Below are positions 19,693 to 46,802 of a DNA stretch of 64,000 nt, piece by piece. Both the position numbers and the translations under genes were made by a program. The stretch lies in assembly GCA_036725605.1 (NCBI GenBank), contig DAIMDW010000021.1:28044-92043 (forward strand). Direction: 5' to 3'. The DNA is from a bacterium (lineage in GTDB: Bacteria; Lernaellota; Lernaellaia; Lernaellales; Lernaellaceae). Position 1 is the stretch's first letter. Every line of letters begins with the position of its first letter. Under the pieces are notes generated by a model. It was not told where the DNA came from. It saw nothing but the letters and a program-made list of their open reading frames with translations, and did no database searches.

Positions 19693-20048
19693 CCGATACG
19701 AAAGAAAAAAAGCGCTCCGACATGGAGACCTGCTTGGGCGCCGACTTCTCGGAATACAAAAAGCGACTTCTGGAAGATCCCGATGTCCGGAGCGCTTATG
19801 ATGAACTGGAACCGGAGTTCGAGTTGATCGCCTCGCTGATCGCGCTACGCGGACGCCGCGGAATGTCGCAGGACGAACTGGCCGAGGCGGTCGGCACCAA
19901 GCAGCCCGCCATCGCCCGTATAGAGAGCGGCCGCTACCGCGGCATGTCGGTCGCCACGTTGGAGAAGATGGCCAGGGCGCTTGACGCAAGGCTGGTCATT
20001 CGCTTCGAAGAAGCCAAGAAGAAGCGCCACCGGGCCGGCACCCGATAA
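19689..20048 (+). CDS. higA: XRE-HTH antitoxin (HigA-like)
   Basis: GMSQDELAEAVGTKQPAIARIESG HTH; 4-nt overlap with the toxin. Confidence 0.82.
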   Translation: MTDTKEKKRSDMETCLGADFSEYKKRLLEDPDVRSAYDELEPEFELIASLIALRGRRGMSQDELAEAVGTKQPAIARIESGRYRGMSVATLEKMARALDARLVIRFEEAKKKRHRAGTR

Positions 20049-23000: not shown

Positions 23001-23166
23001 GGATGCTTTTTGTGATGTCGTCCGGCACGACGCTTCGGTAGTTACCGGCCACGGTGCGTTTGTAGGTTGATAATCGCCTCAACAGTCTGATATCCGTCAG
23101 CGATCCCGCCGGTGCCATCCAGCCGTTGTTTCCAAGCCGCGTCATTCTGGATTCATCGACGATCAT
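19996..23166 (-). CDS. ATP-dependent DNA ligase-like domain + OB/WGR-like region fused to a CDC48-type AAA+ ATPase
   Basis: EKVDGE (KxDG), AEGIV, IFKVKP, GRVRTGFS ligase motifs; C-terminal GAPGNGKT, ILFDEIDA, TNRPDEIDPALRRPGRFD. Confidence 0.8.
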   Translation of the reverse strand: MIVDESRMTRLGNNGWMAPAGSLTDIRLLRRLSTYKRTVAGNYRSVVPDDITKSIPTGEHILSEKVDGETWFLRVESGEAALLSPSGKVIVGVSLLDEAKKLVGDKSILAAGELYAKVEQGRPRVHDLHAALGGWAKAEVERLRFASFDLLRDGSDDAQQLPFAKRVERLRELFAKCERIHPARFETAIDSADIIAAYDRVVTKGGAEGIVIRLADGRIFKVKPEIAIDAAVVGYCEGGEHRVSELLLTLIDENRFHLIGRVRTGFSKKERRGLFDSLSQSACESSFRLAGEHGVLHRWVKPTMVVEVKCNDLLTHRANNEPIRRMMMEYSESEGWTPLRPAPSISMINAVFVRVRDDKSVNDQDVRFSQVTDLAPVEIEKGDAPQQLLPVSEVVRREVFTKKVDHGLAVRKLVIWKTNKDTVDSAYPPWVAYFTDFSPGRETPLKTDIRVASTREKIGAQTDLWIASKIKKGWKAVSQFGAPARTGHQSRAATEKLEREVAALASNGKPQISGFSIVVSFGRSPSLNFGEALRRVKKLAGCGHILVESDDRGRLRHIDVIMNRDIVRHSSRIVSLIALVRTWKSAEIIISGDPLEGRELDAYLHRLREVRRCWRSHRKAGCDGAGSRLGCRMLRIEALPEFLRYANNLQPWWAVGTFDGSTVSIDKDSLRAQVQSERNDLCRQCPLHDHDEIEKKIKDLPDKLDPQNDVQWTMLYHRSTGESVWIAPTGLYNLPWTLMRENEVKSGLSFHVGNGTAATPMMRRIPPTRYDDVRGQEAAVEAVRDYVEMPIKHAELFKRIGTQGGRGVLLYGAPGNGKTLLAKAVAGESSAHIEIVSGPEVLSKWVGEAEEKIRSIFGRARKLAPSVILFDEIDAVASSRSLAEGHHHKTLVSQMLVLLDGLEERGRIFVIGTTNRPDEIDPALRRPGRFDRMIHIGPPSLEGRAAIFAKHMAGMTVNTDIDPLELACLTLNFSGAQIELACREAGMACVKEAVHDHVPLESLKVRMDHFKRAIRLVTESLSCDRSFSIEEKSRGNGDGIIGCRPGGASSWLLRSE

Positions 23167-29725: not shown

Positions 29726-30492
29726 CAGAACAGCCGGGCCTGTTGCGGCGGCTGCGTGGGTTTGGGTTGAGGGGGTTGGGTTTCGGGTTTCGGTGGTGAC
29801 GTGGGAGCCGGACTTGGGGTGTAAAAATCCTCCGGAATATCCCGCTGCGGTCCCACGTATGTGATTTCGCTCCCGGGAAATGCGTGCATCACCATCGAAA
29901 GTTTGCGCAGGTCCTCGGCGGAAATTTCGATGCGATCCTGGCCAGCCCTGTCGGTGTAATCGGGAACGAGCGTGAAATCCCCGGGCTTGGATTTGACGTG
30001 GACCTCGACGCCCAGGGCCTTGAACGACTCGACGTCCTTGGGCGTGAGTTCGCGGGAGACGAGGGTCGCGGCGCAGTCTTCAGCGGATTCATGGTCGAAC
30101 CCGCCGTCAAATTCCATGATCGCCGCGCGTTCGTCCCAAGACTCGACGATACCGATGGCATGGTCATGGGTGGGCGCGACATATAATTTCTCGTCCAGGG
30201 TGTCCAGCGCCGTGAGCAGAGCCTTGTCGCCGAGGTGCTCCAGTGCCCAGGTGTTTATCGCGTTGAACCGCTGGCGCAGAGTTTTCCAGGTTTGGGCTGC
30301 CAGCTTACCGGCTTCGTGCGCTTTTTTGGCTCGCTCCATCCGGCGACGAAGCCAGGCGTAGTACGGGGCATCGAGGCGGCGATAAACGGTATTGCCGATC
30401 ATCACGTCCTGGGGATGGTCGGGGGCATTTTCCAGTGTGATGTGCCTCAGGTCCGTGGCGACGCGCAGGGCGACCTTGTTTTTTTCACTCAT
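29725..30492 (-). CDS. Hypothetical protein
   Basis: Coupled to neighbours; contains WDERAAIMEFDGG, a motif often seen next to primases in such elements. Confidence 0.65.
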   Translation of the reverse strand: MSEKNKVALRVATDLRHITLENAPDHPQDVMIGNTVYRRLDAPYYAWLRRRMERAKKAHEAGKLAAQTWKTLRQRFNAINTWALEHLGDKALLTALDTLDEKLYVAPTHDHAIGIVESWDERAAIMEFDGGFDHESAEDCAATLVSRELTPKDVESFKALGVEVHVKSKPGDFTLVPDYTDRAGQDRIEISAEDLRKLSMVMHAFPGSEITYVGPQRDIPEDFYTPSPAPTSPPKPETQPPQPKPTQPPQQARLF

Positions 30493-33400
30493 GGTCTTCC
30501 TCCTGGGGATCGAAGTCGGCCAAATCGCCGGAAAGCGTTTTGCGGTGGGTTGGGTGGGTTGCGGTGTGTTCTCCAGCAGATTCTTCCTGCGCGCCCGCGT
30601 ACGCGGACCGGGAATTATTCACCGCACTCACCGCATTCACCGTGGAGCATTGATTTTGTTGAGGATTTTCCTGCGGTGAGTCTGCGGTGGGTTGATTTGA
30701 CTCACCGCGCGGTTTTTCGGCCTTTTTGGAAAAGAGATCGACTATTTCACCGGGTGTTCTGCCTTCGCCGTCGCTGACATTGACGAGGCCGTAGGTCTGG
30801 TTTTTGGTTCTGGGATTTCGCTGGATCGATATCCGGTAAATATCAAACTGCCGATCGCGCATGGCGCTGAGGGCTCGTCCGAGCCGAATCTTCTGGGACT
30901 GGGGGCCCTTGTCGCCGATGGTTGCGGAGAGCAGTCCCCGCTCAGTGGCAAGACCCAGGAGTTCGGCAGCGGCCACATATCGCGGCCCGAACCGATCCCA
31001 CCATTCGGCGGTGAACTCCCGCCATTCGTTGCCCTCGTGGTCGGCGGCTTCATATAGTTCTTCGAGATCACCGAGAAAACCGGGGATATCAGCGAACTTC
31101 AGGATGCCGCCGATGGTGCGTGCCCAGGAATCGAAGGACCCGAACGATACTTTTTCCGTCTTTTGGCCCGCGACAACCCAGCCGCGAATGATGGTAAGAA
31201 GCGCGGTGATCAGTGCGGATCTGTTGCGCTCTACCCAGTCATCAAGGGGAGAGTGTTTAAACCCCGAGAGCAACCACGGCCGATCATGATGGGAGTCGAT
31301 TCGGATGCGAACGCAGCGCCGGGCGATCTCCAGGGTAAGCGTGGGATTGTTGGCGGTGGCAAGCCAGAGCGCATTGTTGGGTAAGGTGACGATATGGCTG
31401 GAACCCAGGATGCGGTCGCTCCACTCGGTGTCCGTAAGCACGCTGGCCAAGAATGCCGACCTGATGCCCCCGGAAATATTGTCGAGGAGGATGATTTGGG
31501 GTGCGCGGCTCAGTATCGATGTGAATTTCTTGGCGTTTTCTCCCTCGTCCCTGACGAGCGGCAAACTGGCGGCTTCCTTTTTGGCGAGGGCGATTTTCGA
31601 TATCGCTTTTGCAAGCAGCGACTTTCCGGTGCCCGGTGATGGTGATTCGATCAGGTGCAAGGGCGTCGGCCCCTGGATCATGCGGCGCACAAAGGGATGC
31701 AACAGCGCGGCGATGGCATGGGCGCGATCCGATGGGGCCGTGAACGGAAAATCGACGAGCAGGTCGTTGATCAGCAGGGAGCGTGCCTCGGCCACCTGGG
31801 AATCGGTGGGGTGCTCGGGAACATTCACCGGTTCGAAGCCGCGTGGACGATGAAGCCAGAGTCGAGCATCACGGTGATATCCCGGCGCTTGGACGAGGCT
31901 GCCGTTTCGATCAAAAGTGGGGGTGGTTGCAACGCTTTCCAACGGAGGAAGCGAGTGATGCGGCCGCTTCACCATAACCATCGGAAGTTCCTTGGGCGGA
32001 TTGGCGGGCAACTCCATGTCGGGAGTTCGCCGAACCCAAGAGGCGATGCTGCATAAGTGATCGAACATGATGGTGGCGTCCACGGGAATGATTTCCGGGG
32101 TGTCTTTGAAAAAGGTCAGGCACACCGGGGAGCCGGTTCTCATGAACAGCTTCGGCGGATAATTGGAGGACTGAACCGCCGCCCAAGCCTCATCGCGGAT
32201 GTAGCGAAAATGGCGGTTGTTCACGATGATGGTGGGAAGGCGGGGGCCATCACCACCATTACTTTTCGGGCCATCACCCATTACTTTTTGGGCCTTCGGA
32301 CCATTACTTTTTGGCTGAATGTAATGGTCGGGCATTACTTTCGGGGTTGCTGAACCATTACTTTCCGCCTCGATGTAATGGTCTCCATTACTTTTGGCAT
32401 TACTTTCGGTTTCGGATGTAATGGTCGCGGTGGGTTCCGCCATTACTTTTTGCGGTAAAATGTAATGGTCTTGCTCGTTGCGGAGGATCTGTTCGTCTTT
32501 CGCCATACGGTGGAGCAGGACGCGAGTCGAGTTTTGATCGCGTCCCAGGCGCTCGGCGACGTCTTTGGGAGCAAGAGGCTCCTCGGCCTCAATAAGGCAT
32601 TCCAGAATCTCCCGGCGCTTTTTCGATTTGACCCCGTCGACCAATTCCGCCGGATCGATGTCCATGAACTCGGCGATCTCCTCGTCCGTGGGCAACGGCG
32701 GGTGATCATGTCTCGGCGGCTCCCATCCGGCCTTTTTCGCCATATCGAACAGGGTGCCGAGGGTGACGCCGCCGCCGGACGAGAAGCTCCCCCACTTGTC
32801 CTCGGGTTCACAGGCCACGTATTTGTCGCCGCGAGCGCTCCACGAATCCCAGATGGAAAGTCCGGCCTGCGGTTCCCATTCGTGGAGAGCCATGCCGATC
32901 CGGACCCAGTCGTCGTAGGAACAGTCGGGGGATATGGAGTCCAGGGCAGAGATGACGAGATCGGAGTCGGTTGCCGGATAATCGGAGGGGCCAGATGATG
33001 GGCTGCGGGGCCCGGTACTTTTCTCCTGCCTCTTGGGCCTCTTCTTTAAAACCACATTGCACAAATCATCCGGCACCTGGTCAACGATGGCGGCGAGATC
33101 GGCAACTGAAAACCGTTCGAATTCCTGGGGATCGCTGGGCGCGGGTTCGCCATCGTCGCCGACCACGTAAAACCTGTTGCCGCCGTCCTTCGCATCGAAC
33201 CAGAACGGCAACCAGACTAGGTTGCCCGCCGAGTGCTTGGTGCTGCTCACCTTGTTCTGTTTCGGGAAGCATTCGATGCCCCTGTTGGTGCGTACATCTG
33301 CGATCTCGCCGGTAACCAGGGGTTGATCGACCGGTGCAATGAAATGGCCGAGCAGTCTGGCATCAACAGCCGGAACCGGCTCTTCGAAAAACACCCAGAG

Positions 33401-33871
33401 ATGCCATCCGGCGCCGCTGCCCGATTTTTCGATGTGGACGGGGATGCCGAGTTCGCAACACCGTTGGTAGCACACCATCATCGTTGCCAGCGGATCAGCC
33501 AGCGTCGTGCCCTTGGAGTGATCGGCGCCCGGGCCGTCGAAATCGAGACAAAGCCAGGAGGCGGTATCATCGGGGGCGACCGAATAGCTTCCCAGACGAT
33601 CAAAACCCCGCCCATCGGCAACTTGGCCGGATGTTCTGCGATTGATGTAATTGAGCGGCGGGGCCTTGCCGCCGGACGGTCCGACCACATGGAAAGCGAT
33701 GAGATCGCCAAGGGCCTTCTCTTCCCGAACAGGACGCGGCCGGGATTTCGTTTCTCCGGATTTGCGATCCACCCACGATTGGCAGGCCGCGACGATGTCG
33801 ATCCGGGCAAAAAAGTATTCGCGCAACAGGCGACAGGCTTTTTCTTGCTCCGAGGTCAACCGCCTACCCAT
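30485..33871 (-). CDS. Replication protein: AEP (TOTE-type) primase + PriCT-2 + wHTH + NTPase/helicase, unit A
   Basis: WLCLDFDG, HIEKSGSG.GWHLWVFF, SYDDWVRIGMALH...WD.WS..G.KY, SPSPGTGKS, ILLDNI; start at GGAGG-preceded ATG 33871. Confidence 0.85.
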   Translation of the reverse strand: MGRRLTSEQEKACRLLREYFFARIDIVAACQSWVDRKSGETKSRPRPVREEKALGDLIAFHVVGPSGGKAPPLNYINRRTSGQVADGRGFDRLGSYSVAPDDTASWLCLDFDGPGADHSKGTTLADPLATMMVCYQRCCELGIPVHIEKSGSGAGWHLWVFFEEPVPAVDARLLGHFIAPVDQPLVTGEIADVRTNRGIECFPKQNKVSSTKHSAGNLVWLPFWFDAKDGGNRFYVVGDDGEPAPSDPQEFERFSVADLAAIVDQVPDDLCNVVLKKRPKRQEKSTGPRSPSSGPSDYPATDSDLVISALDSISPDCSYDDWVRIGMALHEWEPQAGLSIWDSWSARGDKYVACEPEDKWGSFSSGGGVTLGTLFDMAKKAGWEPPRHDHPPLPTDEEIAEFMDIDPAELVDGVKSKKRREILECLIEAEEPLAPKDVAERLGRDQNSTRVLLHRMAKDEQILRNEQDHYILPQKVMAEPTATITSETESNAKSNGDHYIEAESNGSATPKVMPDHYIQPKSNGPKAQKVMGDGPKSNGGDGPRLPTIIVNNRHFRYIRDEAWAAVQSSNYPPKLFMRTGSPVCLTFFKDTPEIIPVDATIMFDHLCSIASWVRRTPDMELPANPPKELPMVMVKRPHHSLPPLESVATTPTFDRNGSLVQAPGYHRDARLWLHRPRGFEPVNVPEHPTDSQVAEARSLLINDLLVDFPFTAPSDRAHAIAALLHPFVRRMIQGPTPLHLIESPSPGTGKSLLAKAISKIALAKKEAASLPLVRDEGENAKKFTSILSRAPQIILLDNISGGIRSAFLASVLTDTEWSDRILGSSHIVTLPNNALWLATANNPTLTLEIARRCVRIRIDSHHDRPWLLSGFKHSPLDDWVERNRSALITALLTIIRGWVVAGQKTEKVSFGSFDSWARTIGGILKFADIPGFLGDLEELYEAADHEGNEWREFTAEWWDRFGPRYVAAAELLGLATERGLLSATIGDKGPQSQKIRLGRALSAMRDRQFDIYRISIQRNPRTKNQTYGLVNVSDGEGRTPGEIVDLFSKKAEKPRGESNQPTADSPQENPQQNQCSTVNAVSAVNNSRSAYAGAQEESAGEHTATHPTHRKTLSGDLADFDPQEEDHE
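30542..30708. repeat. CACCGC/GCGGTG iteron-like repeats in the 3' end of primase A
   Basis: About 8 direct and inverted copies within 170 bp. Confidence 0.5.
32257..32470. repeat. Intragenic iteron cluster: 8x CATTACTTT and 4x TGTAATGGTC
   Basis: Counted directly; encodes the KSNG/KVM/DHYI repeats between the wHTH and helicase parts of primase A. Confidence 0.8.
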
Positions 33872-36095
33872 GGATCGCCTCCTGGGTAAGCCCGTCCTTT
33901 CGCCAAAGACCAAGGAAGGTGCTGCGATTGTCGTTGGCCTGTTTCTGGGCGCAGTTTCGGATGCCCCAACGATCGCCGATGATGATCGTCGTTTCCTGGG
34001 CGCGGGATACGCCGGTGTAAAAGAGGTTCTGGCTGTGCATGAACGAATGGCTCTTGTGGATCACCACGACCGCACAGGGAAATTCGCTGCCCTGGGTCTG
34101 GTGGATCGTGAGGGCATAGGCCAGCTGCAGGTCGCTGAGATTGCCGTCGGATCGTTTGAGAAGGACCTCGGCGTTTTCGAATCGGACGCGCAGGTCGCCA
34201 TTGGCGAAAACCTGGGTCACGCGCCCGATGGAGCCGTTCATAATGCCGAGGTCATAGTTGTTGCGGCGCTGGATGACCTTGTCGTGAAGCAGGAACCGGG
34301 GGCGGCGATTGGCTTTTACGGGCTCGACATCGACGCCGTACAGCTTTTTCTGAATGAGCCGCTGGAGTTCGAGATTCAATTCCTCGACGCCGAGCGGATC
34401 CTTTCGCTTGGGCGTGAGCAACTGGACGTCCTCGATGAGATCGAAACCCAACTTGTCGGCCAGGATGGAATCATAGAGATCGCAAACGAGCCGCCGCACA
34501 TCCCAGGCGTCAGTAAAATTGTCGATCCGGTACCAGGGGCGACGACCGCTGGGCAACACCGATTCCGAAGTCTTGGCGACCTTACCGGACAGCACATCAA
34601 TGGAGTTTTGCCGAAGCTCACCGGCCTGCCGAACGATATCAGTGAGCACCACGCCGGGCACGATGCCGGTATGGATCAGGTCGCGCAGCAGATCACCGGG
34701 GCCAACCGGCGGCAGCTGGTTATGGTCGCCGACGAAGACTACGGCGGTTTTGTCGTGATCAATGGAGCGCAGCAGACGCCACGCCAGCGGGATATCCACC
34801 ATTGATGATTCGTCGATGACAATAATGTCGCAGTCGATGGGATCATCCGGACCTTTGCCCCACTCATGACCGTTGTATTCCAGTAACCGATGGATGGTGG
34901 ATGCGCGTATGCCGACCACCTCCTCAAGTCTGCGGGCGGCTTTGCCGGTGGGCGCACAGAGAACCACCCGGAAACCGAGGGATTCATAGAGCCGAGCCAA
35001 TTCACCGACTGTGAAAGTCTTGCCGCTTCCACCACCGCCGGAAATCGTGACAATCTGGTTGGTGAGCGCAACGACAACCGCTTCGCGCTGTTTGGGATTG
35101 AGGTCGGGACAGAGTTTACCATCACGCACCTGTTGCCAGATGCCGAGCAGGTCCATCACCAGGGGGTGGTCACGGTCGCCGTTGCGAAGCCAACCCTCGA
35201 CCTCCCGCTCCATCATGTGGATGGACTTTCGAGCCACAAGCCAACGCCCGTCATGGGAATCGCACGCGAGCTTGCCCGCTTTGATCAAACCATCCAATTC
35301 GTGTTCGATAATGTCACGGGAGTTCAGGGCGTCCATTATTAGGAGCCTGTTGGCCTGTTCGATGAGGTCTGATTCCTCGATCCAGGTGTGCCCTTTGTCG
35401 AGGGCGGTATCGACGCAATCGATTATTCCGGCACGAACACGCGGTGGAAAGTCCTTGGCGATGCCGATCTTCCGGGCAATGGCATCAACTCGCTTGAAGC
35501 CGAAGCCGCGTACGTCCCGCACGATGAGATACGGGTTGTTCTTGATGATAGATACCGCGTCGTTCTCATATTTTTCGATGAGCGTTCGGATCTGATGATG
35601 AGTAAGACCAAAGGCGGAAAGCTCCGATGCGGCCACGTTGCTGGCCTGGCGCTGCATCCATTCGGTCCGAATGTTGCGGGCCGCTTCGATTGTGATGGGA
35701 CCGGCTTTGGCGATCGCCTCGGGGTTTTCCACGATGATCTTGCCGAAATCCCGACCGAACTTTTCCGCAATGCGCCGAGCTTTAACAGGGCCAAGGCCGA
35801 CAAAAACAGGATTGTCCGCAAGATATCGTGCAAGCCCTTCCTCGGATAGATTGAGATCGTGCGTGAGCGTCTCGGTTTTGAACTGTCGCTGATATTTGGA
35901 ATGCATTTCCCAGTCGCCGTGGAGCACAACTTGCTCGCCGACCGCCGCGACAACGGTTCCGGCAAAGTTGATCAGCTTGCCGTTGTCGTCCCGTTTCAGG
36001 CGTCCAGCCGTATAGGTCGGCGATGAAAAAAAGAGGTGCTCCACCCGTCCGGAAATGGATTTTGATTCATGTTCGATGTGGGATGCCGTTTTCAA
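33864..36095 (-). CDS. recD2: RecD2-like SF1B ATP-dependent helicase
   Basis: NPY.....V.GFGFKRVD.IA, Walker A variant GGGGSGKT, IDESSMVD, GDHNQLPPVGPG, LAYALTIHQTQGSEF, LFYTGVSRA. Confidence 0.9.
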   Translation of the reverse strand: MKTASHIEHESKSISGRVEHLFFSSPTYTAGRLKRDDNGKLINFAGTVVAAVGEQVVLHGDWEMHSKYQRQFKTETLTHDLNLSEEGLARYLADNPVFVGLGPVKARRIAEKFGRDFGKIIVENPEAIAKAGPITIEAARNIRTEWMQRQASNVAASELSAFGLTHHQIRTLIEKYENDAVSIIKNNPYLIVRDVRGFGFKRVDAIARKIGIAKDFPPRVRAGIIDCVDTALDKGHTWIEESDLIEQANRLLIMDALNSRDIIEHELDGLIKAGKLACDSHDGRWLVARKSIHMMEREVEGWLRNGDRDHPLVMDLLGIWQQVRDGKLCPDLNPKQREAVVVALTNQIVTISGGGGSGKTFTVGELARLYESLGFRVVLCAPTGKAARRLEEVVGIRASTIHRLLEYNGHEWGKGPDDPIDCDIIVIDESSMVDIPLAWRLLRSIDHDKTAVVFVGDHNQLPPVGPGDLLRDLIHTGIVPGVVLTDIVRQAGELRQNSIDVLSGKVAKTSESVLPSGRRPWYRIDNFTDAWDVRRLVCDLYDSILADKLGFDLIEDVQLLTPKRKDPLGVEELNLELQRLIQKKLYGVDVEPVKANRRPRFLLHDKVIQRRNNYDLGIMNGSIGRVTQVFANGDLRVRFENAEVLLKRSDGNLSDLQLAYALTIHQTQGSEFPCAVVVIHKSHSFMHSQNLFYTGVSRAQETTIIIGDRWGIRNCAQKQANDNRSTFLGLWRKDGLTQEAIHG

Positions 36096-36102
36096 CTGTC
36101 AT

Positions 36103-36207
36103 GCCTTTCCTTTATGCTTCGATTCGTTCGGTTCCATTCCGTTTTGATCCGATCCACTCATCTTCATTCGTTTTTCAATTCCACCGGCCGAGGCCGACTC
36201 GATTCGA
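36103..36207 (-). repeat. Pentamer array 3 (21 in-phase 5-mers, NN+GRA, more degenerate)
   Basis: ...gtGGA tcGGA tcAAA acGGA atGGA acCGA acGAA tcGAA gcATA aaGGA. Confidence 0.7.
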
Positions 36208-36225
36208 CCACGGACGCTGAAATCG

Positions 36226-36310
36226 ACCTTTTCAATCCTTTCCATTCCGCTTCATTGCCTTCCGGTCTGATTTCCTCCTATCCCCTTCCGTCCGATTTCT
36301 TCCGTTACTG
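36226..36310 (-). repeat. Pentamer array 2 (17 units, 13 ending G-N-A)
   Basis: caGTA acGGA agAAA tcGGA cgGAA ggGGA taGGA ggAAA tcAGA ccGGA agGCA atGAA gcGGA atGGA aaGGA ttGAA aaGGT. Confidence 0.85.
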
Positions 36311-36320
36311 ATCACTGCGG

Positions 36321-36480
36321 TTGAATGGTCAGCGAAACCCCCGATTAAGGAGGCTCCGCTGGGCGTTCAAATAAATTCCAAACCATCCTTTTCTTTTCAC
36401 TCCATTCCGCCCGGCTGCTTTTCTATCCTTTCCACTCCGCCGCTATCCGTTTGCCTTCTCTCCGGTACACTGCTCGTCTC
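36321..36480 (-). ncRNA. Putative guide RNA: pentamer array 1 (22 units, 17 ending G-N-A) plus 3' hairpin
   Basis: gaGCA gtGTA ccGGA gaGAA ggCAA acGGA taGCG gcGGA gtGGA aaGGA taGAA aaGCA gcCGG gcGGA atGGA gtGAA aaGAA aaGGA tgGTT tgGAA ttTAT ttGAA, then a 13-bp stem CAGCGGAGCCTCC-TTAATC-GGGGGTTTCGCTG. Confidence 0.7.
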
Positions 36481-36483
36481 TAG

Positions 36484-37002
36484 TCATTTTTCTTTTTCCG
36501 CCGCCATGTTCAGGAAGGCTTTGATGTTCGGTGCTTTGCCGCTGATGTTGGCGGGGATCAGTTTCTTGGTGTCCACGGTGGCGACGCGGTAGATCGCGCC
36601 GGTGCGAAGACGCTCCATTTCCAGGTGCCTTTTCGCGTCATCGTCCAGCTGGTCGGCGTTGATCTTGACCAGGACGCCCATGGTTTTTTTCGTGTGGCGC
36701 GTGGCCAATTCCCGACGGCCCTGAGCGAAATCCACCGCCTCTGCCTCGGTAAGGCGGCGGAATCCCACTTTGGTCACGGTGTCGATGAAGATTTCCTCGT
36801 TCCACAGATTCTTTTGAGCGGTGTAGAAACAGCCGCGCTTTTTCTCCTGGTAATCAACGCCACGCCGGGCATGTAATTCCTCGTATGTGATGACCTCGCC
36901 CGGCTCCAAAGCGCGAAGATCGTTCATGAGGGCGGTGGTTTCCGGGCTCATACGAAAAGGCGGGAACCGATTGACGACCTGGGCCTGGGATGATGTGTCC
37001 AT
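36484..37002 (-). CDS. Hypothetical protein with probable winged-HTH, between the RAMP gene and the arrays
   Basis: GGAGG SD then ATG 37002; EVITYEELH...G.DY...RG.FY.A.K.L; the longer 36484-37578 call is an upstream extension overlapping the RAMP gene. Confidence 0.7.
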   Translation of the reverse strand: MDTSSQAQVVNRFPPFRMSPETTALMNDLRALEPGEVITYEELHARRGVDYQEKKRGCFYTAQKNLWNEEIFIDTVTKVGFRRLTEAEAVDFAQGRRELATRHTKKTMGVLVKINADQLDDDAKRHLEMERLRTGAIYRVATVDTKKLIPANISGKAPNIKAFLNMAAEKEK

Positions 37003-37012
37003 GACGACCTCC

Positions 37013-37591
37013 TTATTTCTGCTTCCAGACCAGGTCCTCAACAACGAACCGCCCGTAATAACCGTTGTTCTGGGGGCGGAATCTGCCGAGCCCGTTGAAA
37101 AAGCCGGTGGCGACGATGTGCTCCTCGAAAATGTCCTTGGTGATTTCCGGCGCGGCGATGTGAACGGTCGCCTCGGTGCGCCATTCATCGATGGTGGGAA
37201 ATACGCGGGCGACTCGTTTCGCTCCACCCCGTTTGCCGTCGGAGGGCACGTGGATTTTTTCGGGATAGATGCGCGGGTCTTCGATGTGAACGCCGAGGTA
37301 AAGACGCTGATCGATGGCGATGCCCTTGGTGAACTGGGCGGTAAAACCCCGCTGCGATCCCTTGACCTTTTTGCCGAGAAACTTCGCCGTTTCAGAGAGG
37401 GCGTAATGCAGGGCCATCGGCGGGATGAAAACCTGGCCGTCACGGTCGTAGTGCAGCTTTTCCCGCCAGTGCTCGTCCTCCCACTCGTCGTAGGACTGGT
37501 TTTGGCCCTTTTCGATGTTGAGATACCGGCTGTTGCTGTAGGGCGACTGCCCGATAATCGAGAATTTCGCTTCAACAAATTGGATGCTCAT
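37013..37591 (-). CDS. Stand-alone RAMP/Cas7-like protein (candidate RNA-guided effector)
   Basis: RAMP-like motifs IIGQSPY, FIPPMALHYAL, RVARVFP..DEW, and Gly-rich loop GFFNGLGRFRPQNNGYYGRF.V; GGAG SD; no cas genes or CRISPR array nearby. Confidence 0.75.
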   Translation of the reverse strand: MSIQFVEAKFSIIGQSPYSNSRYLNIEKGQNQSYDEWEDEHWREKLHYDRDGQVFIPPMALHYALSETAKFLGKKVKGSQRGFTAQFTKGIAIDQRLYLGVHIEDPRIYPEKIHVPSDGKRGGAKRVARVFPTIDEWRTEATVHIAAPEITKDIFEEHIVATGFFNGLGRFRPQNNGYYGRFVVEDLVWKQK

Positions 37592-37603
37592 GATATGCTC
37601 CTG

Positions 37604-38164
37604 TCAGTGTGAATGTTCTGTTTCGCCGCCCGCGCCATGGGCGGCTTTTGTTTGCCGTTCCTTTGCTTTGCAGCCCGTTTCTGCCGTTTCCGGTTCTGTC
37701 CGATCCTTTCGTCTTCTTTCCGGTCCAATCGTTTTCCGAAGACATTCGGCCGCCGCGATCAAAAAATGTTCGGTGAAAGCCCGGGCGATCTGCCTGTTGG
37801 AACAGGGGATAACCGGAATGCCTTTGTTAACGACGATGCTGATCAGTGCTCCGAAGACGCTTGCGGGGTGAGCGCCGGATCGGTAGCTGCCGGAGAGGAT
37901 GTCGGAGAGATTTCCCTCGACGACCACGCAGGAATGGGCATATTCGGCGAGCTTTGTAAGTTCCAACCCGAACCTGCGACGATCCGAGATGACGGATTTC
38001 ACAAAATCGTCCAGCGACTTTCGTTCGACAGCGATGGAGGTTTCCATCCCCTCGACCGAATAATCCCCGGCGGGCAATGCGCGGCGTTCCGTCATCACCC
38101 CCTGAAACTCGTAGGGGATCTGTTCCCTGGTATCGATGATGATGGTCGGCGTATTCATGTTCAA
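37604..38164 (-). CDS. ERCC4/XPF-domain nuclease
   Basis: IIIDTREQ.P, LPAGDYS, IAVERKSLDDF, F..EL..L; the last about 45 aa are low-complexity read-through of array 0. Confidence 0.88.
   Translation of the reverse strand: MNMNTPTIIIDTREQIPYEFQGVMTERRALPAGDYSVEGMETSIAVERKSLDDFVKSVISDRRRFGLELTKLAEYAHSCVVVEGNLSDILSGSYRSGAHPASVFGALISIVVNKGIPVIPCSNRQIARAFTEHFLIAAAECLRKTIGPERRRKDRTEPETAETGCKAKERQTKAAHGAGGETEHSH
37625..37738 (-). ncRNA. Putative guide RNA: pentamer array 0 (17 units, 12 ending G-N-A) plus 7-bp GC hairpin, overlapping the ERCC4 tail
   Basis: cgGAA aaCGA ttGGA ccGGA aaGAA gaCGA aaGGA tcGGA caGAA ccGGA aaCGG caGAA acGGG ctGCA aaGCA aaGGA acGGC, then GCCGCCC-ATGGCGC-GGGCGGC. Confidence 0.65.
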
Positions 38165-43521: not shown

Positions 43522-43676
43522 GTGACAATTCGTTTTCTTTTGGGGTTGTCGAAAAAATCGAGCCCCGGCGAAGCGGAAGGCAAAGCCTTCACATGGCCCT
43601 ACGAGGTAATCGGAAGAACCGATCCCGCGTTGGACCGAAGGCGAGGTCCTTCCGTTTCGGCGGGGCTTTTCTTTTT
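43522..43676 (+). promoter_or_regulatory. Terminator/antiterminator leader ahead of primase B
   Basis: GGGG-TTG-TCGA-AAAAA-TCGA-G-CCCC hairpin overlaps the 5' arm of a 20-bp stem ending CGGGGCT-TTTCTTTT. Confidence 0.6.
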
Positions 43677-43688
43677 GAGGGGGTCGCA

Positions 43689-46600
43689 GTGCACGAAAAG
43701 GAAAAATGCGTTCAACTTCTGCTTAAGGATTTTCTCACAAGGCGGGACGTTGTCGCGGCGCGGCAGCAGTGGCAGGACCGCCGGAGTAGAGAGTGGATTT
43801 CCAGGCCTCGCCCGGTTAAAGCCGGCCCACAATTGGAGAGTTTGGTCGCCTTCCATGTCTATGGACCGGAGGGACGCAAGGCACCCCCATTAAATTACAT
43901 CAATAACAAAACCGGGGCTCTCGTTGCCGATGGCCGTGGCTTTGACCGCTTGGGTGCTTATGCCGTCACACCGGACAATAAATGCGGGTGGCTTTGTCTT
44001 GATTTTGATGGTCCGGGCCATCCGCTGCCTTTAGCTGACCCGACGGCCACGATGCTTGCGTGCGTGGAACGCTGCCGCGCTTTGGGCGTCCCCAGCCACA
44101 TCGAGATGTCCGGCAGCGGCCATGGTTGGCATCTCTGGGTGTTTTTCGAAAACCCGGTGCCGGCCTCTGATGCGCGGTTGCTCGGGCATCGTGTCGCACC
44201 CACGGATCATCTGCTCGTCACCGGCGAGCCCGCCGATATCCGAACAGGGCGTGGGATCGAATGCTTCCCGAAGCAGAACACGGTCAGCGACAAGAAAATC
44301 GGCGCGGGCAACATGGTCTGGCTGCCGCATTGGTTTGGAGCAATAGGCGGGGGAAATCAATTCCATCGGTTCACGGACGAAAGGATTCTCGCCCCGTATT
44401 TACCTGACGAGTTCGAACGACTACCGGTCGAGCGGCTCCAGGACATCCTCACCCAGGTGCCCGACGATATTAGGCACTTCGTGCTAAAAACGAAGGATGG
44501 ACTAAAGGCCCCGTCGGCTCCGAAAAGTAGTCCACACGCTGCGTCCACCAACTATGCGCCAAGCGACACTCAGATGATCCAGGCGGCACTCGATCACATC
44601 TCGCCCGACGTTTCCTATGACGACTGGCTTCGTATCGGCATGGCACTTCACCACTGGGACGCGCAGGCGGGGCTTTCCCTTTGGGACGCCTGGAGCGCAC
44701 TCGGCGAGAAGTATGTGGATGGCGAGCCTCCGCTCAAGTGGGACGGATTCACATCCGGCGGCGGCGTCACACTCGGCACCCTGTTCGATATGGCAAAAAA
44801 AGCGGGTTGGACCTCACCCGTTCATAAACGGGTTCCGCTGCCAAGTGACGAAGAGATCAACGATTTTATTGACGTTGACCCATCCGCATTGCTCGATGGA
44901 GCGGCTTTTAAACGAACGATCAACGCTGAAACCGCTCTTTCTGGTTCGGACGGGATCACAGTTTCAGATAGAAAGCGATTGCCGGTCATTATCGTCAATA
45001 ATCGAACCGGTCCTGCACTGATCGAGGAAGCTTGGGCGGCGATTCGTGCTTCCAATTATCCACCGCGAATATTCCAACGGAATGGCGCATTGGTCCGACT
45101 CACGATGAATACGGACCCTCCGAAAATCATCCCCATGAATTTCGTCTCCATGTATGGCCTTTTATGGCGGGTTGCCAATTGCGTCGTCGATGCCAACGAC
45201 ATGCAGAAGTCGGTCAACCCGCCCAAAGATCTGGCTAGCGACATGCTGGAGTATCCCGACCCAACGTTACCCCACCTCGATGCCGTCGTCTCCACGCCGG
45301 TCTATGATCGCGAGGGCAATCTTGTTCAAGCGCCCGGGTATCACCGAACCGCTCGGCTCTGGATGCATATCGCGCCCGGAACATTGCCATATGATGTTCC
45401 GACCAAACCATCAGACGCACAGATCGCCGAAGCCGTTGCTCTTCTCAACAACGAACTATTTGTCGATTTTCCGTTCACCTCGCAGTCCGGCCGTGCTCAT
45501 GCCGTGGCCGCTCTGTTGCAGCCTTTCATCCGGCGGATGGTCGATGGGCCGACCCCCATGTATTTGCTGGAGTCGCCGAGCCCGGGCACCGGAAAAACCC
45601 TTCTCGCGAAAGTCATCTCCAGAATTGTGCTCGGCAAGTCTGTCAACGCGGCAAGCCTCGATCTGGATGAGCAAGCTATCGCGAAAAAGATCACGGCCAT
45701 TCTTCTGGGCGCACCGCAGGTCGTCCTAATCGACAACATCAATGTTCGCACTGGTCTCAAGTCGGCCGCTCTGGCCGCCGCAATGACCGCCGAACCTTAT
45801 TCCGAACGCGTTTTATACCAACCCGGCATGACGGAGCTTCCCAACCATGCGTTGTGGCTTATCACGGCCAACAATCCGAGCATGTCCCTGGAGATTGCCC
45901 GCCGCTGTGTCAGCATACGCATCGACGCGCGACACGACCGACCTTGGCGTCTGCATGGATTCAAGCACGAGCCGCTGGATGATTGGGTGGTAGAAAACCG
46001 TGCGGCCTTGATCACGGCCATTCTCACCATCGTGCGTGGCTGGATCGTCGCGGGGCGGCCGTCGGGAAAATTGACCTTCGGTTCCTTTGATTCATGGGCC
46101 CGCATTACCGGTGGCATTCTTCAGTTCTCAGGCATTCCCGGATTTCTTTCCAACCTCGAAGACCTGTACGAAGCAGCGGACACCGAAGGTGGGGAATGGC
46201 GCGAATTCGTCGCCGCGTGGTGGAGCAAATTCGGCGGGCGGGTTGTACCTTTTGCGGAACTGTTGGACCTCGCCAATGAAAAGGGCTTGCTCCCATCCGT
46301 CGTCGGCGATCAGGGATCGCGCGCGCAAAAGACACGGCTCGGCCGCGCCCTCAGCGCCATGAGGAATAGGCAGTTTGATTCCTATCGAATTGTGCAGCGA
46401 AGAAACAGCCATACGAAGCAATCCGAATACACGCTGGAAGAGGTAAACGCCGACGACCAACGCATACCGCATGGAATGGCTCCGGTCCTGCCGCTTTTTG
46501 CGGGTGATCGTCAGCCATCGAGCGCATCATCCGCAATATCGTCCGCGAAAAATAATTCTAAAAATCAGCCAGTTGCGGATGATGCGGAAGATGCGGAAGA

Positions 46601-46802
46601 CATTTCCAATTTGCTGGATAACGAGGGCGATAAAAAAGGGATGGAGGGGGTATATGAGAACAATAGAGGGCTATCATCCGCATCAACCGCAAACGTAGAA
46701 ATTCATCAGCACAATCAGCAAGTTAGCCATGCGGAGGATGATTCGAGATTATCTCCGGCATCATCAGCGGATCTCGCCGACTTCGAACCTGAGGAGGATT
46801 AA
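43689..46802 (+). CDS. Replication protein: AEP (TOTE-type) primase + PriCT-2 + NTPase/helicase, unit B
   Basis: WLCLDFDG, GWHLWVFF, SYDDWLRIGMALH, SPSPGTGKT; collinear with primase A but lacking the wHTH/iteron insert; GTG start after GAGGGG. Confidence 0.85.
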   Translation: MHEKEKCVQLLLKDFLTRRDVVAARQQWQDRRSREWISRPRPVKAGPQLESLVAFHVYGPEGRKAPPLNYINNKTGALVADGRGFDRLGAYAVTPDNKCGWLCLDFDGPGHPLPLADPTATMLACVERCRALGVPSHIEMSGSGHGWHLWVFFENPVPASDARLLGHRVAPTDHLLVTGEPADIRTGRGIECFPKQNTVSDKKIGAGNMVWLPHWFGAIGGGNQFHRFTDERILAPYLPDEFERLPVERLQDILTQVPDDIRHFVLKTKDGLKAPSAPKSSPHAASTNYAPSDTQMIQAALDHISPDVSYDDWLRIGMALHHWDAQAGLSLWDAWSALGEKYVDGEPPLKWDGFTSGGGVTLGTLFDMAKKAGWTSPVHKRVPLPSDEEINDFIDVDPSALLDGAAFKRTINAETALSGSDGITVSDRKRLPVIIVNNRTGPALIEEAWAAIRASNYPPRIFQRNGALVRLTMNTDPPKIIPMNFVSMYGLLWRVANCVVDANDMQKSVNPPKDLASDMLEYPDPTLPHLDAVVSTPVYDREGNLVQAPGYHRTARLWMHIAPGTLPYDVPTKPSDAQIAEAVALLNNELFVDFPFTSQSGRAHAVAALLQPFIRRMVDGPTPMYLLESPSPGTGKTLLAKVISRIVLGKSVNAASLDLDEQAIAKKITAILLGAPQVVLIDNINVRTGLKSAALAAAMTAEPYSERVLYQPGMTELPNHALWLITANNPSMSLEIARRCVSIRIDARHDRPWRLHGFKHEPLDDWVVENRAALITAILTIVRGWIVAGRPSGKLTFGSFDSWARITGGILQFSGIPGFLSNLEDLYEAADTEGGEWREFVAAWWSKFGGRVVPFAELLDLANEKGLLPSVVGDQGSRAQKTRLGRALSAMRNRQFDSYRIVQRRNSHTKQSEYTLEEVNADDQRIPHGMAPVLPLFAGDRQPSSASSAISSAKNNSKNQPVADDAEDAEDISNLLDNEGDKKGMEGVYENNRGLSSASTANVEIHQHNQQVSHAEDDSRLSPASSADLADFEPEED
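46527..46781. repeat. TCCGC/GCGGA iteron-like repeats in the 3' end of primase B
   Basis: About 8 copies, e.g. GCGGATGATGCGGAAGATGCGGAAG. Confidence 0.5.

What the first reader, a model, noticed from the sequence alone, without database searches (positions are those of the whole stretch)
36103..36480. Three arrays of NN-GRA pentamers directly downstream of a RAMP-like operon: candidate gapped-code guide RNAs
Seen: on the coding strand, 22 + 17 + 21 in-phase 5-mers in which two bases vary freely and three are nearly fixed (GGA > GAA > GCA/GTA). Array 1 starts within 10 nt of the stop codon and ends in a 13-bp hairpin; arrays 2 and 3 are joined by an 18-nt phase-shifting linker. No unit order is shared between arrays, so this is not slippage of a microsatellite. 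Inference: each array is an RNA on which RAMP subunits polymerise one per pentamer, gripping the constant triplet and displaying NN for target pairing. From memory (not verified here), recently reported VIPR systems have this logic with GGY/NN units; a GRA triplet would be a distinct variant.
Basis: partly seen in the sequence, partly recalled or inferred. Interest (0 to 1): 0.96.

Follow-up and report, generated by a model that had tools for sequence, protein, structure and literature searches.

The report
VIPR guide RNAs with purine triplets
A mobile element carries a recently described kind of RNA-guided DNA-recognition system (VIPR), but its guide RNAs use G-R-A instead of the published G-G-pyrimidine as the constant part of each 5-base unit, and one guide appears aimed at the catalytic motif of rival viruses' helicase genes.

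Summary
The minus strand carries in-phase NN-G-R-A pentamers (lag-5 z = 5.8). There are four arrays, not three, because a fourth lies upstream of the 192-aa gene. That gene encodes a Cas7-like RAMP and is homologous to the experimentally characterised Vipr of phage SUSP1. A conserved winged-helix-like accessory gene follows it. About 85 of 96 related loci carry 5-nt periodic arrays beside the gene, so this is a VIPR system (bioRxiv 10.64898/2026.04.26.720920).

The new feature is the constant triplet. Every surveyed relative has a pyrimidine at triplet position 3 (GGC, GAC, GTC, GTT, GGT, CGC, CAC, CTC). Only this lineage has A there (GGA > GAA). Its Vipr alone carries K62H, N63Y, I166N and Q20N at near-invariant positions. 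Two of these align with the pocket that excludes purines in the solved Vipr structures.

Read with the published 1-nt-skip rule, ten consecutive units of array 3 match the SF1 helicase motif II codons (DVVIVDETSM) in 27 viral contigs. Skip-0 and skip-2 controls gave no hits. The element's own RecD2 helicase (DIIVIDESSM) is not matched.

Expression, Vipr binding and targeting are untested. Verdict: a new variant of a known kind.

The parts
37604..38158 (-). ERCC4-type nuclease gene. It is the upstream neighbour in a phage-type replication module. Its 3' extension (about the last 45 codons) overlaps the upstream array.
   Evidence: The Pfam ERCC4 domain covers residues 8-123 of 184, E 3e-19. The ORF stays open through the array and hairpin in the window and in L123. 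Whether that tail is translated is unknown.
37649..37738 (-). Upstream vrRNA-like array: 18 in-phase NN-GRA units (cgGAA ... aaGGA acGGC aaACA).
   Evidence: The 3' end and the following hairpin are conserved in the relative L123.
37625..37645 (-). Tail hairpin of the upstream array (GCCGCCC-7 nt-GGGCGGC), just before the vipr ribosome-binding site.
   Evidence: The stem is conserved and the loop differs in L123.
37013..37591 (-). vipr: a 192-aa stand-alone RAMP (Cas7-like) protein with lineage-specific H62, Y63, N166 and N20.
   Evidence: AF2 pLDDT 94.3. Foldseek to type VII Cas7, Csm3 and Cmr4, E 1e-8 and TM about 0.57. hhalign to the LESphi2 homologue, 98.4% probability and E 4.7e-15. LESphi2 is 37.6% identical to SUSP1 Vipr. 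Residue survey.
36484..37002 (-). vap-like accessory gene: a 172-aa predicted winged-helix domain followed by long helices.
   Evidence: Homologues lie directly downstream of vipr in more than 40 related loci, phmmer E down to 2e-18. Alignment. AF2 pLDDT 80. The only Foldseek hits are weak (E >= 0.014), and all are winged-helix DNA-binding regulators.
36386..36480 (-). Array 1 repeat tract: 19 units from gaGAC to the terminal aaGGA. The same phase runs from 36500, inside the last vap codons, to 36376.
   Evidence: The NN series differs from the corresponding arrays of the relative L124.
36322..36370 (-). Tail A: a conserved stem-loop after array 1 (core 13-bp hairpin at 36361-36330).
   Evidence: Three homologous copies (one in the window, two in L124) fold to one consensus hairpin with base changes that keep pairing.
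36226..36305 (-). Array 2 repeat tract: 16 units from acGGA to aaGGT.
   Evidence: It is homologous to the third array of L124. In the 11-unit core, 20/22 NN bases are identical but only 26/33 triplet bases, and A at position 3 is kept in 15 of the 16 aligned units (my count on the sequences printed). Candidate target L155/L158.
36175..36228 (-). Tail B: a conserved stem-loop after array 2.
   Evidence: Conserved with L124, RNAalifold consensus -17.35 kcal/mol. Single-sequence fold of this 54-nt segment -27.8 kcal/mol.
36103..36172 (-). Array 3 repeat tract: 14 units from aaCGA to aaGGC. The guide core is NN = at ga gt tc tc ac at ac ac tc (36167-36121).
   Evidence: Read as NNx, the core matches helicase motif II codons in 27 viral contigs, with 0 hits for skip 0 or skip 2.
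33864..36071 (-). RecD2 (YrrC)-type SF1 helicase, the downstream neighbour. Its own motif II is DIIVIDESSM (codons near 34823).
   Evidence: Pfam OB_YrrC, HHH_RecD2, AAA_30, SH3_13 and UvrD_C_2. Only 15/22 guide bases and 5/10 units match its own motif II.

Best explanation
This is a VIPR (Viral Interference Programmable Repeat) locus on a phage-like mobile element. It comprises a stand-alone RAMP protein (Vipr, 37013-37591), a winged-helix-like accessory protein (vap, 36484-37002) and four vrRNA genes, one upstream and three downstream.

Each vrRNA is a tract of about 14-19 pentamers with a constant G-R-A triplet and a variable NN. Each tract ends in a conserved AAGG-type cap. Three of the four (the upstream array and arrays 1 and 2) are followed by a conserved stem-loop tail; array 3 has none.

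Inferred mechanism, by homology with SUSP1 and P. fulva VIPR:
- One Vipr protomer binds each pentamer.
- It sequesters the constant triplet and presents NN.
- The filament reads double-stranded DNA as NN-x-NN-x (1-nt skip) and blocks the target.

The departure from the published systems is triplet position 3. It is A here, whereas it is a pyrimidine in every surveyed relative and in the published consensus. I infer that the base-3 pocket has been re-specified by N63Y and I166N, together with K62H and Q20N.

Array 3 most likely targets the Walker-B/motif II coding sequence (DVVIVDETSM) of RecD2-like helicases of competing viruses, with the skipped base on the codon wobble position. The element's own helicase (DIIVIDESSM) escapes.

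Shown here: the periodic arrays, the fold, the homology, family-wide co-occurrence of arrays with the gene, the uniqueness of A3 and of the four substitutions, and the in-silico target match.
Inferred: transcription on the vipr strand, processing, filament assembly, adenine recognition, and repression of targets.
For: Periodicity and composition.
VIPR literature.
RAMP fold: AF2 pLDDT 94.3. The top Foldseek PDB hits are all Cas7-family subunits, E 1e-8.
Conserved G-rich loop GxGRFRPxNNGYYGRF and thumb-like PSDGKRGG.

Homology chain:
- The window protein hits Pseudomonas phage LESphi2 P21_9 by tblastn, E 2e-5, and by hhalign, 98.4% probability and E 4.7e-15.
- LESphi2 carries classical NNGGC arrays upstream of that gene.
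- LESphi2 is 37.6% identical, E 1e-41, to phiSUSP1 ALH47069.1. That protein's residues H17, K33, E71, M72, R138, C173, D177, W178 and R179 match the numbering in the structural paper.

Family-wide arrays: 5-nt periodic tracts abut the gene in almost all of 31 genome loci and 80 viral loci.
vap is conserved downstream of vipr.
Cap and tail architecture is shared with the closest GGC-type relative L119 and with L124 and L123.

A3 and the pocket:
- The window is the only GGA locus of about 96 surveyed.
- H62, Y63, N166 and N20 are absent from 192 distinct homologues and are shared only with L123, the other sampled Vipr of this lineage.
- Y63 and N166 align with P. fulva S75 and with C171 (SUSP1 C173) of the pocket that excludes purines.
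- Independent support: homologues with L63 use mixed GGC/GGT, and N63 homologues use mostly GGC.

Targeting: the array 3 seed gave 27 viral contigs, all in frame in 26 distinct helicase ORFs at DVVIVDETSM. 25 extend to a tenth unit. Skip 0 and skip 2 gave no hits. There is no self match.
Context: a phage-type replication module and a serine integrase.
Against: No expression or binding data exist for this locus.
The triplets are more degenerate than in relatives (GGA or GAA in 43 of 73 units), so some units may not be bound.
The transcribed strand is inferred only from polarity shared with GGC-type relatives. A G.U-pair strand test on the tails was inconclusive, and no sigma-70-like promoter was found.
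The pocket re-specification rests on one lineage (one evolutionary event) and on sequence alignment to structures I could not load, because they are not in the PDB copy.
Only one of five guide seeds gave a convincing target. Array 1 and the upstream array gave nothing.
The array 2 candidate (L155/L158: 12 of 16 units perfect, 25/32 bases) puts the skipped base on codon position 1 and has an estimated chance expectation of about 0.01.
The published text lists alternative repeats (NNNGG, YNNNG, NNNNG) whose logos I could not see, so an A-type may already be among them.
Confidence: 0.82

Rival explanations
1. It is the same VIPR system, but the arrays are transcribed from the opposite (+) strand. 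The units would then read T-Y-C-N-N (TCC/TTC), with the usual pyrimidine at position 3. In that case there is no purine-reading variant.
For: Every other surveyed locus has Y at position 3, while positions 1-2 vary freely (GG, GA, GT, CG, CA, CT), so TYC would fit that pattern. The G.U strand test on tails is mixed: the window tails favour the vipr strand and the L124 tails slightly favour the other strand. The hairpin at 37625-37645 followed by TTTTGTTTG scores as a +-strand terminator-like site.
Against: In SUSP1 and LESphi2 the GGY sense is the vipr strand. In this clade the GGC-type arrays read GGC on the vipr strand and end in aaGGC aaGGA + U-rich + hairpin (L119). The window arrays have the same cap and tail polarity on the vipr strand: aaGAA aaGGA tgGTTT, and aaGGA..aaGGT cgATTT. 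All flanking genes are on the minus strand, and array 1 begins at the vap stop codon. The four unique substitutions at near-invariant positions, two of them in the base-3 pocket, are unexplained if base 3 is still C.
Confidence: 0.08
2. The arrays are decaying remnants of former GGC-type vrRNA arrays and no longer function. The purine richness would reflect mutational drift.
For: Triplet conservation is lower than in relatives (G 77%, R 86%, A 85%, against 85-100% in GAC, GGC and CGC arrays). No targets were found for two of the four arrays.
Against: The G-R-A consensus, the tails and the caps are retained in a relative whose accessory (vap) protein is 86% identical. That relative even has one extra array. 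In homologous arrays the NN are better conserved than the triplets (20/22 against 26/33 bases in the core), and A3 is nearly invariant (15 of the 16 aligned units); both are my counts on the sequences. vipr and vap are intact and identical in seven independent metagenome contigs. Drift from GGC would not give a uniform C-to-A change at one position. Array 3 has a highly non-random target match.
Confidence: 0.05
3. It is a CsrB/RsmZ-like sponge RNA. The many GGA motifs would titrate a CsrA/RsmA-family regulator of the host rather than serve a RAMP filament.
For: There are 27 GGA motifs in about 480 nt, many in an A-rich context. GGA is the core of CsrA binding sites (established knowledge).
Against: No Rfam family, including the CsrB/Rsm families, matches even at E <= 10. 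In Csr/Rsm RNAs the GGA motifs sit in hairpin loops at irregular spacing, not in a strict 5-nt phase. The phase, cap and tail architecture and position next to a Vipr gene are shared with relatives whose triplets (GAC, CGC, CAC) contain no GGA.
Confidence: 0.02

Closest known systems
VIPR systems (Vipr + vap + vrRNA), especially type II of Escherichia phage SUSP1 and the Pseudomonas fulva prophage (bioRxiv 10.64898/2026.04.26.720920 and 10.64898/2026.04.26.720927)
   Same: It has a stand-alone RAMP protein with an RRM core, a G-rich loop and a thumb. vipr-vap form a two-gene operon on a mobile element. One array lies upstream and three downstream, as in SUSP1. The repeats are tandem pentanucleotides with a constant triplet and variable NN, followed in three of the four arrays by a structured 3' tail. 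One guide fits the 1-nt-skip rule with the skipped base on the codon wobble position, and the target is another virus's gene.
   Different: Protein identity to the type II homologue LESphi2 is only about 24%. The residue that reads G1 in type II (D177 in SUSP1, D175 in P. fulva) is R in this whole clade. The constant triplet is G-R-A, not G-G-Y. The pocket said to exclude purines carries Tyr and Asn where relatives have Asn and Ile. Positions 1-2 are purine-degenerate (GGA, GAA, AGA, AAA, GCA). The tails are simple stem-loops; a pseudoknot was not tested. I could not assign one of the seven published types, because the supplementary tables and logos are not held.
GGC/GAC/CGC-type members of the same Vipr clade (for example L119, L005, L018; metagenomic phages and prophages)
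   Same: 40-50% identical Vipr, a homologous vap, and arrays directly flanking the genes. The caps are the same (NN = aa in the last units, terminal GG-N, U-rich stretch, hairpin).
   Different: All have a pyrimidine at triplet position 3 and keep K62, N63 (or L63), I/V166 and Q20 (or F/M20). The window lineage has A and H62/Y63/N166/N20.
Class 1 CRISPR-Cas effector backbones (Cas7/Csm3/Cmr4 filaments on crRNA)
   Same: The closest solved folds are Cas7 of type VII, Csm3 and Cmr4. Both use one RAMP per fixed RNA step, with a thumb that interrupts the guide-target duplex periodically.
   Different: There are no CRISPR repeats or spacers and no other cas genes in the 64-kb window. The step is 5 nt with 2 paired bases, instead of 6 nt with 5 paired. 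The guide information is interleaved with the protein-binding motif rather than sitting in a contiguous spacer.

Membership tests
VIPR | Vipr protein: a stand-alone RAMP (RRM core, glycine-rich loop, thumb) outside any CRISPR-Cas locus | tested here: met
   AF2 model pLDDT 94.3. Foldseek best hits are Cas7, Csm3 and Cmr4, E 1e-8 to 1e-5. The GxGRFRPxNNGYYGRF loop is conserved. There are no CRISPR-like repeats in the window, and the neighbours are replication genes.
VIPR | Sequence homology to an experimentally characterised Vipr | tested here: met
   hhalign of the family alignment against the LESphi2 protein gives 98.4% probability and E 4.7e-15 over 172 columns. LESphi2 against phiSUSP1 Vipr gives 37.6% identity and E 1e-41. 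The SUSP1 residue numbering was verified against the paper.
VIPR | Minimal vipr + vap operon with a DNA-interacting accessory protein | tested here: met
   The 172-aa gene is conserved immediately downstream of vipr in more than 40 loci. Its secondary-structure pattern is winged-helix-like. Foldseek gives only weak winged-helix matches, E >= 0.014, so the DNA-binding assignment is tentative.
VIPR | Tandem pentanucleotide repeats (9-16 units in type II) flanking vipr, with a constant triplet and hypervariable NN | tested here: met
   Four arrays of 14-19 units. NN covers 16 dinucleotides. Arrays 1 and 3 differ completely in NN from those of the relative L124, while array 2 is partly conserved.
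VIPR | The constant motif is GGY | tested here: not met
   Position 3 is A in 85% of 73 units and a pyrimidine in 10%. The paper allows 'a related consensus' (NNNGG, YNNNG, NNNNG), but fixed A with G-R is not among those written out. This is the variant feature.
VIPR | A conserved structured 3' tail after the repeat tract | tested here: met
   Stem-loops follow the upstream array, array 1 and array 2. They are conserved with base changes that keep pairing in L123 and L124. No tail was found after array 3. A pseudoknot was not tested.
VIPR | vrRNAs are expressed as small RNAs of about 100 nt and co-purify with Vipr as a helical filament | not testable with these tools
   This needs small-RNA-seq, pull-down or cryo-EM.
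VIPR | Targets are read as NN-x-NN (1-nt skip) on dsDNA of competing mobile elements | tested here: inconclusive
   Array 3: 27 viral contigs at helicase motif II with the skipped base on wobble, against 0 for skip 0 and skip 2. Array 2: one candidate with 12 of 16 units perfect. Array 1 and the upstream array: nothing. All of this is in silico.
VIPR | Carried by a phage, provirus or other mobile element | tested here: met
   PDDEXK_1, AAA_24, DUF669, ERCC4, RecD2 helicase, AEP primase-polymerases and a large serine recombinase. 80 or more homologous loci are in IMG/VR viral contigs. Structural genes were not identified among the ORFs I scanned.
CRISPR-Cas (class 1) | A repeat-spacer array and a set of cas genes | tested here: not met
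   No direct-repeat family with CRISPR-like spacing, and no cas genes among the neighbours.
CsrB/RsmY/RsmZ sponge RNAs | A match to the Rfam covariance models, with GGA in hairpin loops at irregular spacing | tested here: not met
   No such Rfam hit at E <= 10 in 35800-38000. The GGA motifs are in strict 5-nt phase.

The most novel reading that the evidence does not exclude
The constant triplet of VIPR guides is an evolvable identity tag rather than a fixed GGY handle. Within one Vipr clade it has diversified to GGC, GGT, GAC, GTC, GTT, CGC, CAC, CTC and, in this lineage, to the purine-ended G-R-A. The G-R-A change came through a rebuilt base-3 pocket (N63Y, I166N, K62H, Q20N). This would make co-resident or competing VIPR systems orthogonal: each protein would load only its own guides. 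It would also give a natural, engineerable set of orthogonal protein-RNA pairs. In this element the system is used to hit the catalytic motif II of rivals' RecD2 helicases at the level of the amino-acid code, while its own helicase differs at the protein level.
Probability: 0.35. Interest if true: 0.8.

Novelty: new variant of a known kind. Interest (0 to 1): 0.62.

Why it matters
VIPR was described only in 2026, and its recognition code was defined on GGY guides. The structural paper states that the base-3 pocket sterically excludes purines.

This locus offers a natural system whose guides carry adenine at that position, together with four lineage-specific substitutions, two of them at the aligned pocket residues. 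That gives a precise and cheap experiment on how the protein reads its RNA, by swapping residues 62/63/166/20 and the triplet. It also suggests that orthogonal Vipr-vrRNA pairs exist in nature, which is useful if VIPR is developed as a programmable repressor.

The array 3 result extends the published idea that skipping the wobble base defeats synonymous escape. Here the guide appears to be aimed at an almost immutable catalytic motif shared by many viruses' helicases, while the element's own helicase differs at the protein level and is not matched.

If the RNAs are not made or not bound, none of this holds and the locus is only a sequence curiosity.

Tried and rejected
- Tandem Repeats Finder and the direct-repeat finder do not detect the arrays.
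- Rfam at E <= 10 gave only noise. No hammerhead ribozyme lies between the arrays, and there is no Csr/Rsm match.
- The sigma-70 promoter scan found nothing. The terminator scan returned the upstream-array tail hairpin on the + strand and one minus-strand site inside the helicase gene.
- PDB sequence search with the Vipr gave only spurious hits to designed Kelch repeats. The published Vipr structures are not in the PDB copy, so the pocket comparison rests on sequence alignment and on residue numbers quoted in the paper.
- Pfam has no family for Vipr or vap. PHROGs gives only phrog_4652, of unknown function.
- A G.U-pair asymmetry test for the transcribed strand was inconclusive.
- Six further metagenome contigs carrying the identical Vipr (L033-L038) are identical to the window over 1721 nt at this locus, so they give no variation.
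- Local target scans of the window and of about 0.76 Mb, then 0.54 Mb, of fetched loci found no target for any skip rule beyond the arrays themselves and the seeded hits.
- Array 1 5' seed: three hits that are one sequence, with no extension beyond the seed, so I treat it as chance.
- Array 1 3' seed and the upstream-array seed gave zero hits.
- Array 2 seed in metagenomes: most of the 40 hits belong to one conserved cellular gene encoding ..ILGEPQPRD.. and do not extend beyond the seed (about 22/32 bases). I treat them as seed-level coincidences.
- The vap fold search gave only weak winged-helix matches.
- I considered and rejected microsatellite slippage, because NN varies and the order of units is not repeated.
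- I also rejected a protein-coding reading of the downstream arrays, because a 5-nt period is incompatible with codons and whole arrays are gained or lost between relatives.
Full report
**1. Observation**

Window 36095-36485 is an intergenic stretch of 389 nt on the minus strand. It lies between a 172-aa ORF (36484-37002) and a 743-aa helicase gene.

- Read on the minus strand, it shows pentamers in phase with two variable bases followed by G-R-A.
- Lag-5 identity in 36103-36480 is 0.416, against 0.282 +/- 0.023 in 2000 dinucleotide-preserving shuffles (z 5.8). Lag 10 is also elevated. Lags 3, 4 and 6 are not significantly elevated (z at most 1.5). This is the top lag-5 region of the 64-kb window.
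- Over 73 units, G is 77% at triplet position 1, R is 86% at position 2 (G 39, A 24) and A is 85% at position 3. GGA occurs 27 times and GAA 16. NN uses all 16 dinucleotides.
- A simple criterion (at least 7 of 10 in-phase G[GA]A) picks out exactly four regions in the window, all on the minus strand, and none in shuffled sequence.
The fourth lies upstream of the 192-aa gene (about 37738-37649) and is followed by a GC-rich hairpin at 37645-37625.
- That upstream array sits in the 3' extension of the ERCC4 ORF, beyond the Pfam domain (residues 8-123 of 184).

**2. The protein**

The 192-aa product of 37013-37591 has no Pfam family and only a PHROG of unknown function.

- With a 40-sequence alignment, AlphaFold2 gives pLDDT 94.3.
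- Foldseek against the PDB returns only Cas7-family RAMPs at the top: type VII Cas7 (8yhe, E 1.3e-8, TM about 0.57), then Csm3 and Cmr4.
- The family has an invariant glycine-rich loop (GxGRFRPxNNGYYGRF) and a PSDGKRGG..RV segment.

**3. Link to the published system**

VIPR is real literature. The discovery paper is bioRxiv 10.64898/2026.04.26.720920. It describes Vipr + vap + vrRNAs of 9-16 YNNGG repeats with a conserved tail, the 1-nt-skip rule, seven types, and alternative repeats NNNGG, YNNNG and NNNNG. The structural companion is 10.64898/2026.04.26.720927. It shows one protomer per repeat, the GGY sequestered, and Y3 held in a pocket that 'sterically excludes purines'.

- The window protein hits one deposited phage, Pseudomonas phage LESphi2 gene P21_9 (tblastn 24% identity, E 2e-5). 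Classical NNGGC arrays lie just upstream of that gene.
- A profile comparison of the window family with that protein gives 98.4% probability and E 4.7e-15 over 172 columns.
- The LESphi2 protein is 37.6% identical (E 1e-41) to phiSUSP1 ALH47069.1.
- That SUSP1 protein's residues H17, K33, E71, M72, R138, C173, D177, W178 and R179 match the numbering in the structural paper, and NNGGT arrays flank it on the same strand.
- So the window protein is a distant (about 24%) but clear homologue of the characterised Vipr.

**4. Family context**

The word-index search found 199 homologues, with the best non-self hit at 50% identity. I fetched 31 loci from genome and MAG contigs, 80 from IMG/VR viral contigs and several metagenome contigs.

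- Almost all have strongly 5-nt periodic tracts abutting the gene, upstream and/or downstream and often after the next gene.
- The next gene is homologous to the window's 172-aa ORF in more than 40 loci (phmmer E down to 2e-18). Its alignment and model show a helix-strand-helix-helix-hairpin winged-helix pattern followed by long helices.
- Foldseek for this protein gives only weak hits (E >= 0.014), all to winged-helix DNA-binding regulators. This agrees with a vap of the DNA-binding kind, but the assignment is tentative.
- In the window the locus sits in a phage-type replication module. On the coding (minus) strand the order is PDDEXK_1, AAA_24, DUF669, ERCC4, then vipr, vap and the arrays, then the RecD2 helicase and an AEP primase-polymerase. 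A large serine recombinase lies elsewhere in the window.
- No CRISPR-like repeats are present.

**5. What is different**

Across about 96 loci the modal constant triplet on the vipr strand is GGC in the majority, and otherwise GAC, GTC, GTT, GGT, CGC, CAC or CTC. The third position is always a pyrimidine. The window is the only GGA locus. The closest homologue (50% identity, L119) uses NNGGC.

In an alignment of 192 distinct homologues:
- Position 62 is K in 189.
- Position 63 is N in 181 and L in 10.
- Position 166 is I or V in 186.
- Position 20 is Q in 165.
- The window protein has H62, Y63, N166 and N20. None of these occurs in any other homologue except L123, a 94%-identical relative of the same lineage.

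By alignment, Y63 corresponds to P. fulva S75, and N166 corresponds to P. fulva C171 and SUSP1 C173. These are named in the structural paper as steric walls of the Y3 pocket.

An independent check comes from within the clade. The six loci whose Vipr has L63 (with F or M at position 20) use mixed GGC/GGT, with T at 24-72%. The 28 loci with N63 use mostly GGC, with T at 0-25%. Residue 63 therefore tracks the identity of base 3.

I infer that the pocket has been re-specified for adenine. This rests on one lineage and on alignment, not on a structure.

**6. Architecture of the RNAs**

L124 is a related element whose vap is 86% identical. It has four G-R-A arrays downstream of vap.

- The stem-loop after the window's array 1 recurs after two L124 arrays, and the one after array 2 recurs after a third. 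Base changes in these copies preserve pairing.
- The hairpin after the upstream array is conserved in L123.
- Arrays end in units with NN = aa and a terminal GG-N (aaGAA aaGGA; aaGGA..aaGGT; aaGGA acGGC; aaGGA aaGGC). GGC-, GAC- and CGC-type relatives have the same kind of cap.
- This shared polarity, together with GGY being the vipr-strand sense in SUSP1 and LESphi2, is my basis for reading the RNAs on the minus strand. A G.U asymmetry test did not settle the strand.
- The window's array 2 and L124's third array are homologous. In the 11-unit core, 20/22 NN bases are identical but only 26/33 triplet bases. The triplet changes stay within G/A at position 1 and G/A/C at position 2, and A3 is kept in 15 of the 16 aligned units (my count). 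So A3 is the best-kept base, and positions 1-2 are read loosely.
- Arrays 1 and 3 have unrelated NN series in the two elements.

**7. Targets**

I converted NN series into NNx patterns (1-nt skip).

- There is no self target in the window.
- In IMG/VR, 9-unit seeds gave the following. Array 2 core: 1 hit. Array 1 5' part: 3 hits that are one sequence, with no extension. Array 1 3' part: 0 hits. Upstream array: 0 hits. Array 3: 27 hits.
- All 27 array 3 hits lie in frame in long ORFs, 26 of them distinct, at SF1 helicase motif II, DVVIVDETSM. The skipped base falls on the codon wobble position, and 25 hits extend to a tenth unit.
- The same NN series with skip 0 or skip 2 gave no hit.
- The matched units are exactly the well-formed core of array 3.
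- The element's own RecD2 helicase, encoded immediately downstream, has DIIVIDESSM. It matches only 15/22 bases and 5/10 units.
- This mirrors the paper's observation and its argument about wobble skipping.
- In the metagenome collection the array 2 seed gave 40 hits. Most belong to one conserved cellular gene and do not extend. Two contigs with the same sequence (L155, L158) match the first 12 of 16 units perfectly, inside a 134-aa ORF next to an SNF2-like helicase. There the skipped base is on codon position 1, and I estimate a chance expectation of about 0.01. I list it as a candidate only.

**8. Rivals**

- Opposite-strand transcription, giving TYC units with the usual pyrimidine, is the serious alternative. 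I put it at about 8%, for the polarity and substitution reasons above.
- Decayed arrays are unlikely, given the conservation in L124 and the array 3 match.
- A Csr/Rsm-type sponge is excluded as a family member by Rfam and by the strict phase.

**9. Verdict**

The locus is a VIPR system.

- The kind of system is known (two 2026 preprints; no other papers in the library).
- The G-R-A constant triplet, with a matching set of pocket substitutions, is a variant I did not find in about 96 relatives or in the published text. I could not inspect the published logos.
- Untested: expression, processing, Vipr binding, adenine recognition and target repression.

Noticed in passing
Related loci L003, L005, L012, L015, L018, L020, L024, L026-L028, L097, L098: Within one Vipr clade the constant triplet differs from locus to locus (GGC, GGT, GAC, GTC, GTT, CGC, CAC, CTC). 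The G2 position is often not G. Some arrays are very long (34 GAC units in L098), and up to seven tandem arrays can precede vipr (L097:2225-2970).
   Followed up: partly
Loci L054, L062, L075, L197, L198, L199 compared with 28 GGC-type loci: Vipr homologues with Leu instead of Asn at alignment position 63 (and Phe or Met instead of Gln at position 20) use mixed GGC/GGT repeats. Asn63 homologues use almost only GGC. This looks like a protein-RNA specificity covariation.
   Followed up: partly
window 37604-37740 (-): The ERCC4 nuclease ORF runs on for about 45 codons through the upstream array and its hairpin, to a stop 13 nt before vipr. The same is true in the relative L123. It is unclear whether this charged tail is translated or is an artefact of a purine-rich sequence that lacks stop codons.
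   Followed up: partly
window 30485-33913 (-) and 43593-46802 (+): There are two large paralogous AEP primase-polymerase genes (both hit phrog_10537, phrog_29234 and phrog_19930) on opposite strands of the same element, plus a third helicase-primase at 52845-55415 (-).
   Followed up: no
window 19996-23166 (-): A 1056-aa ORF combines an ATP-dependent DNA ligase-like N-terminal part (phrog_114) with a C-terminal AAA/clamp-loader-like ATPase.
   Followed up: no
window 56840-58348 (+): A large serine recombinase/integrase (phrog_95, E 1.6e-127) suggests that the element integrates. No virion structural genes were recognised among the 20 large ORFs scanned with PHROGs.
   Followed up: no
window 10796-11020, 17379-17483 and 17835-17924 (+): Long GAY-rich (GAT/GAC) tandem codon repeats encode poly-Asp stretches in at least two ORFs.
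   Followed up: no
window 5304-6329 (-) and 16108-17319 (+): Two paralogues of phrog_12197 (unknown function; E 1e-90 and 6e-84) occur in the same element.
   Followed up: no
window 36034-36046 (-): A terminator-like hairpin plus a T-run (GGGTGGAGCACCT CTTTTTTTCA) lies about 25-60 nt inside the helicase ORF, just after array 3. It might end the vrRNA transcript or attenuate helicase expression.
   Followed up: no
L158:764-1168 (-) and L155: A 134-aa ORF of unknown family next to an SNF2-like helicase, on a short metagenome contig, matches the first 12 units of array 2 perfectly under the 1-nt-skip rule. It is a possible natural target, but the skipped base is on codon position 1.
   Followed up: partly
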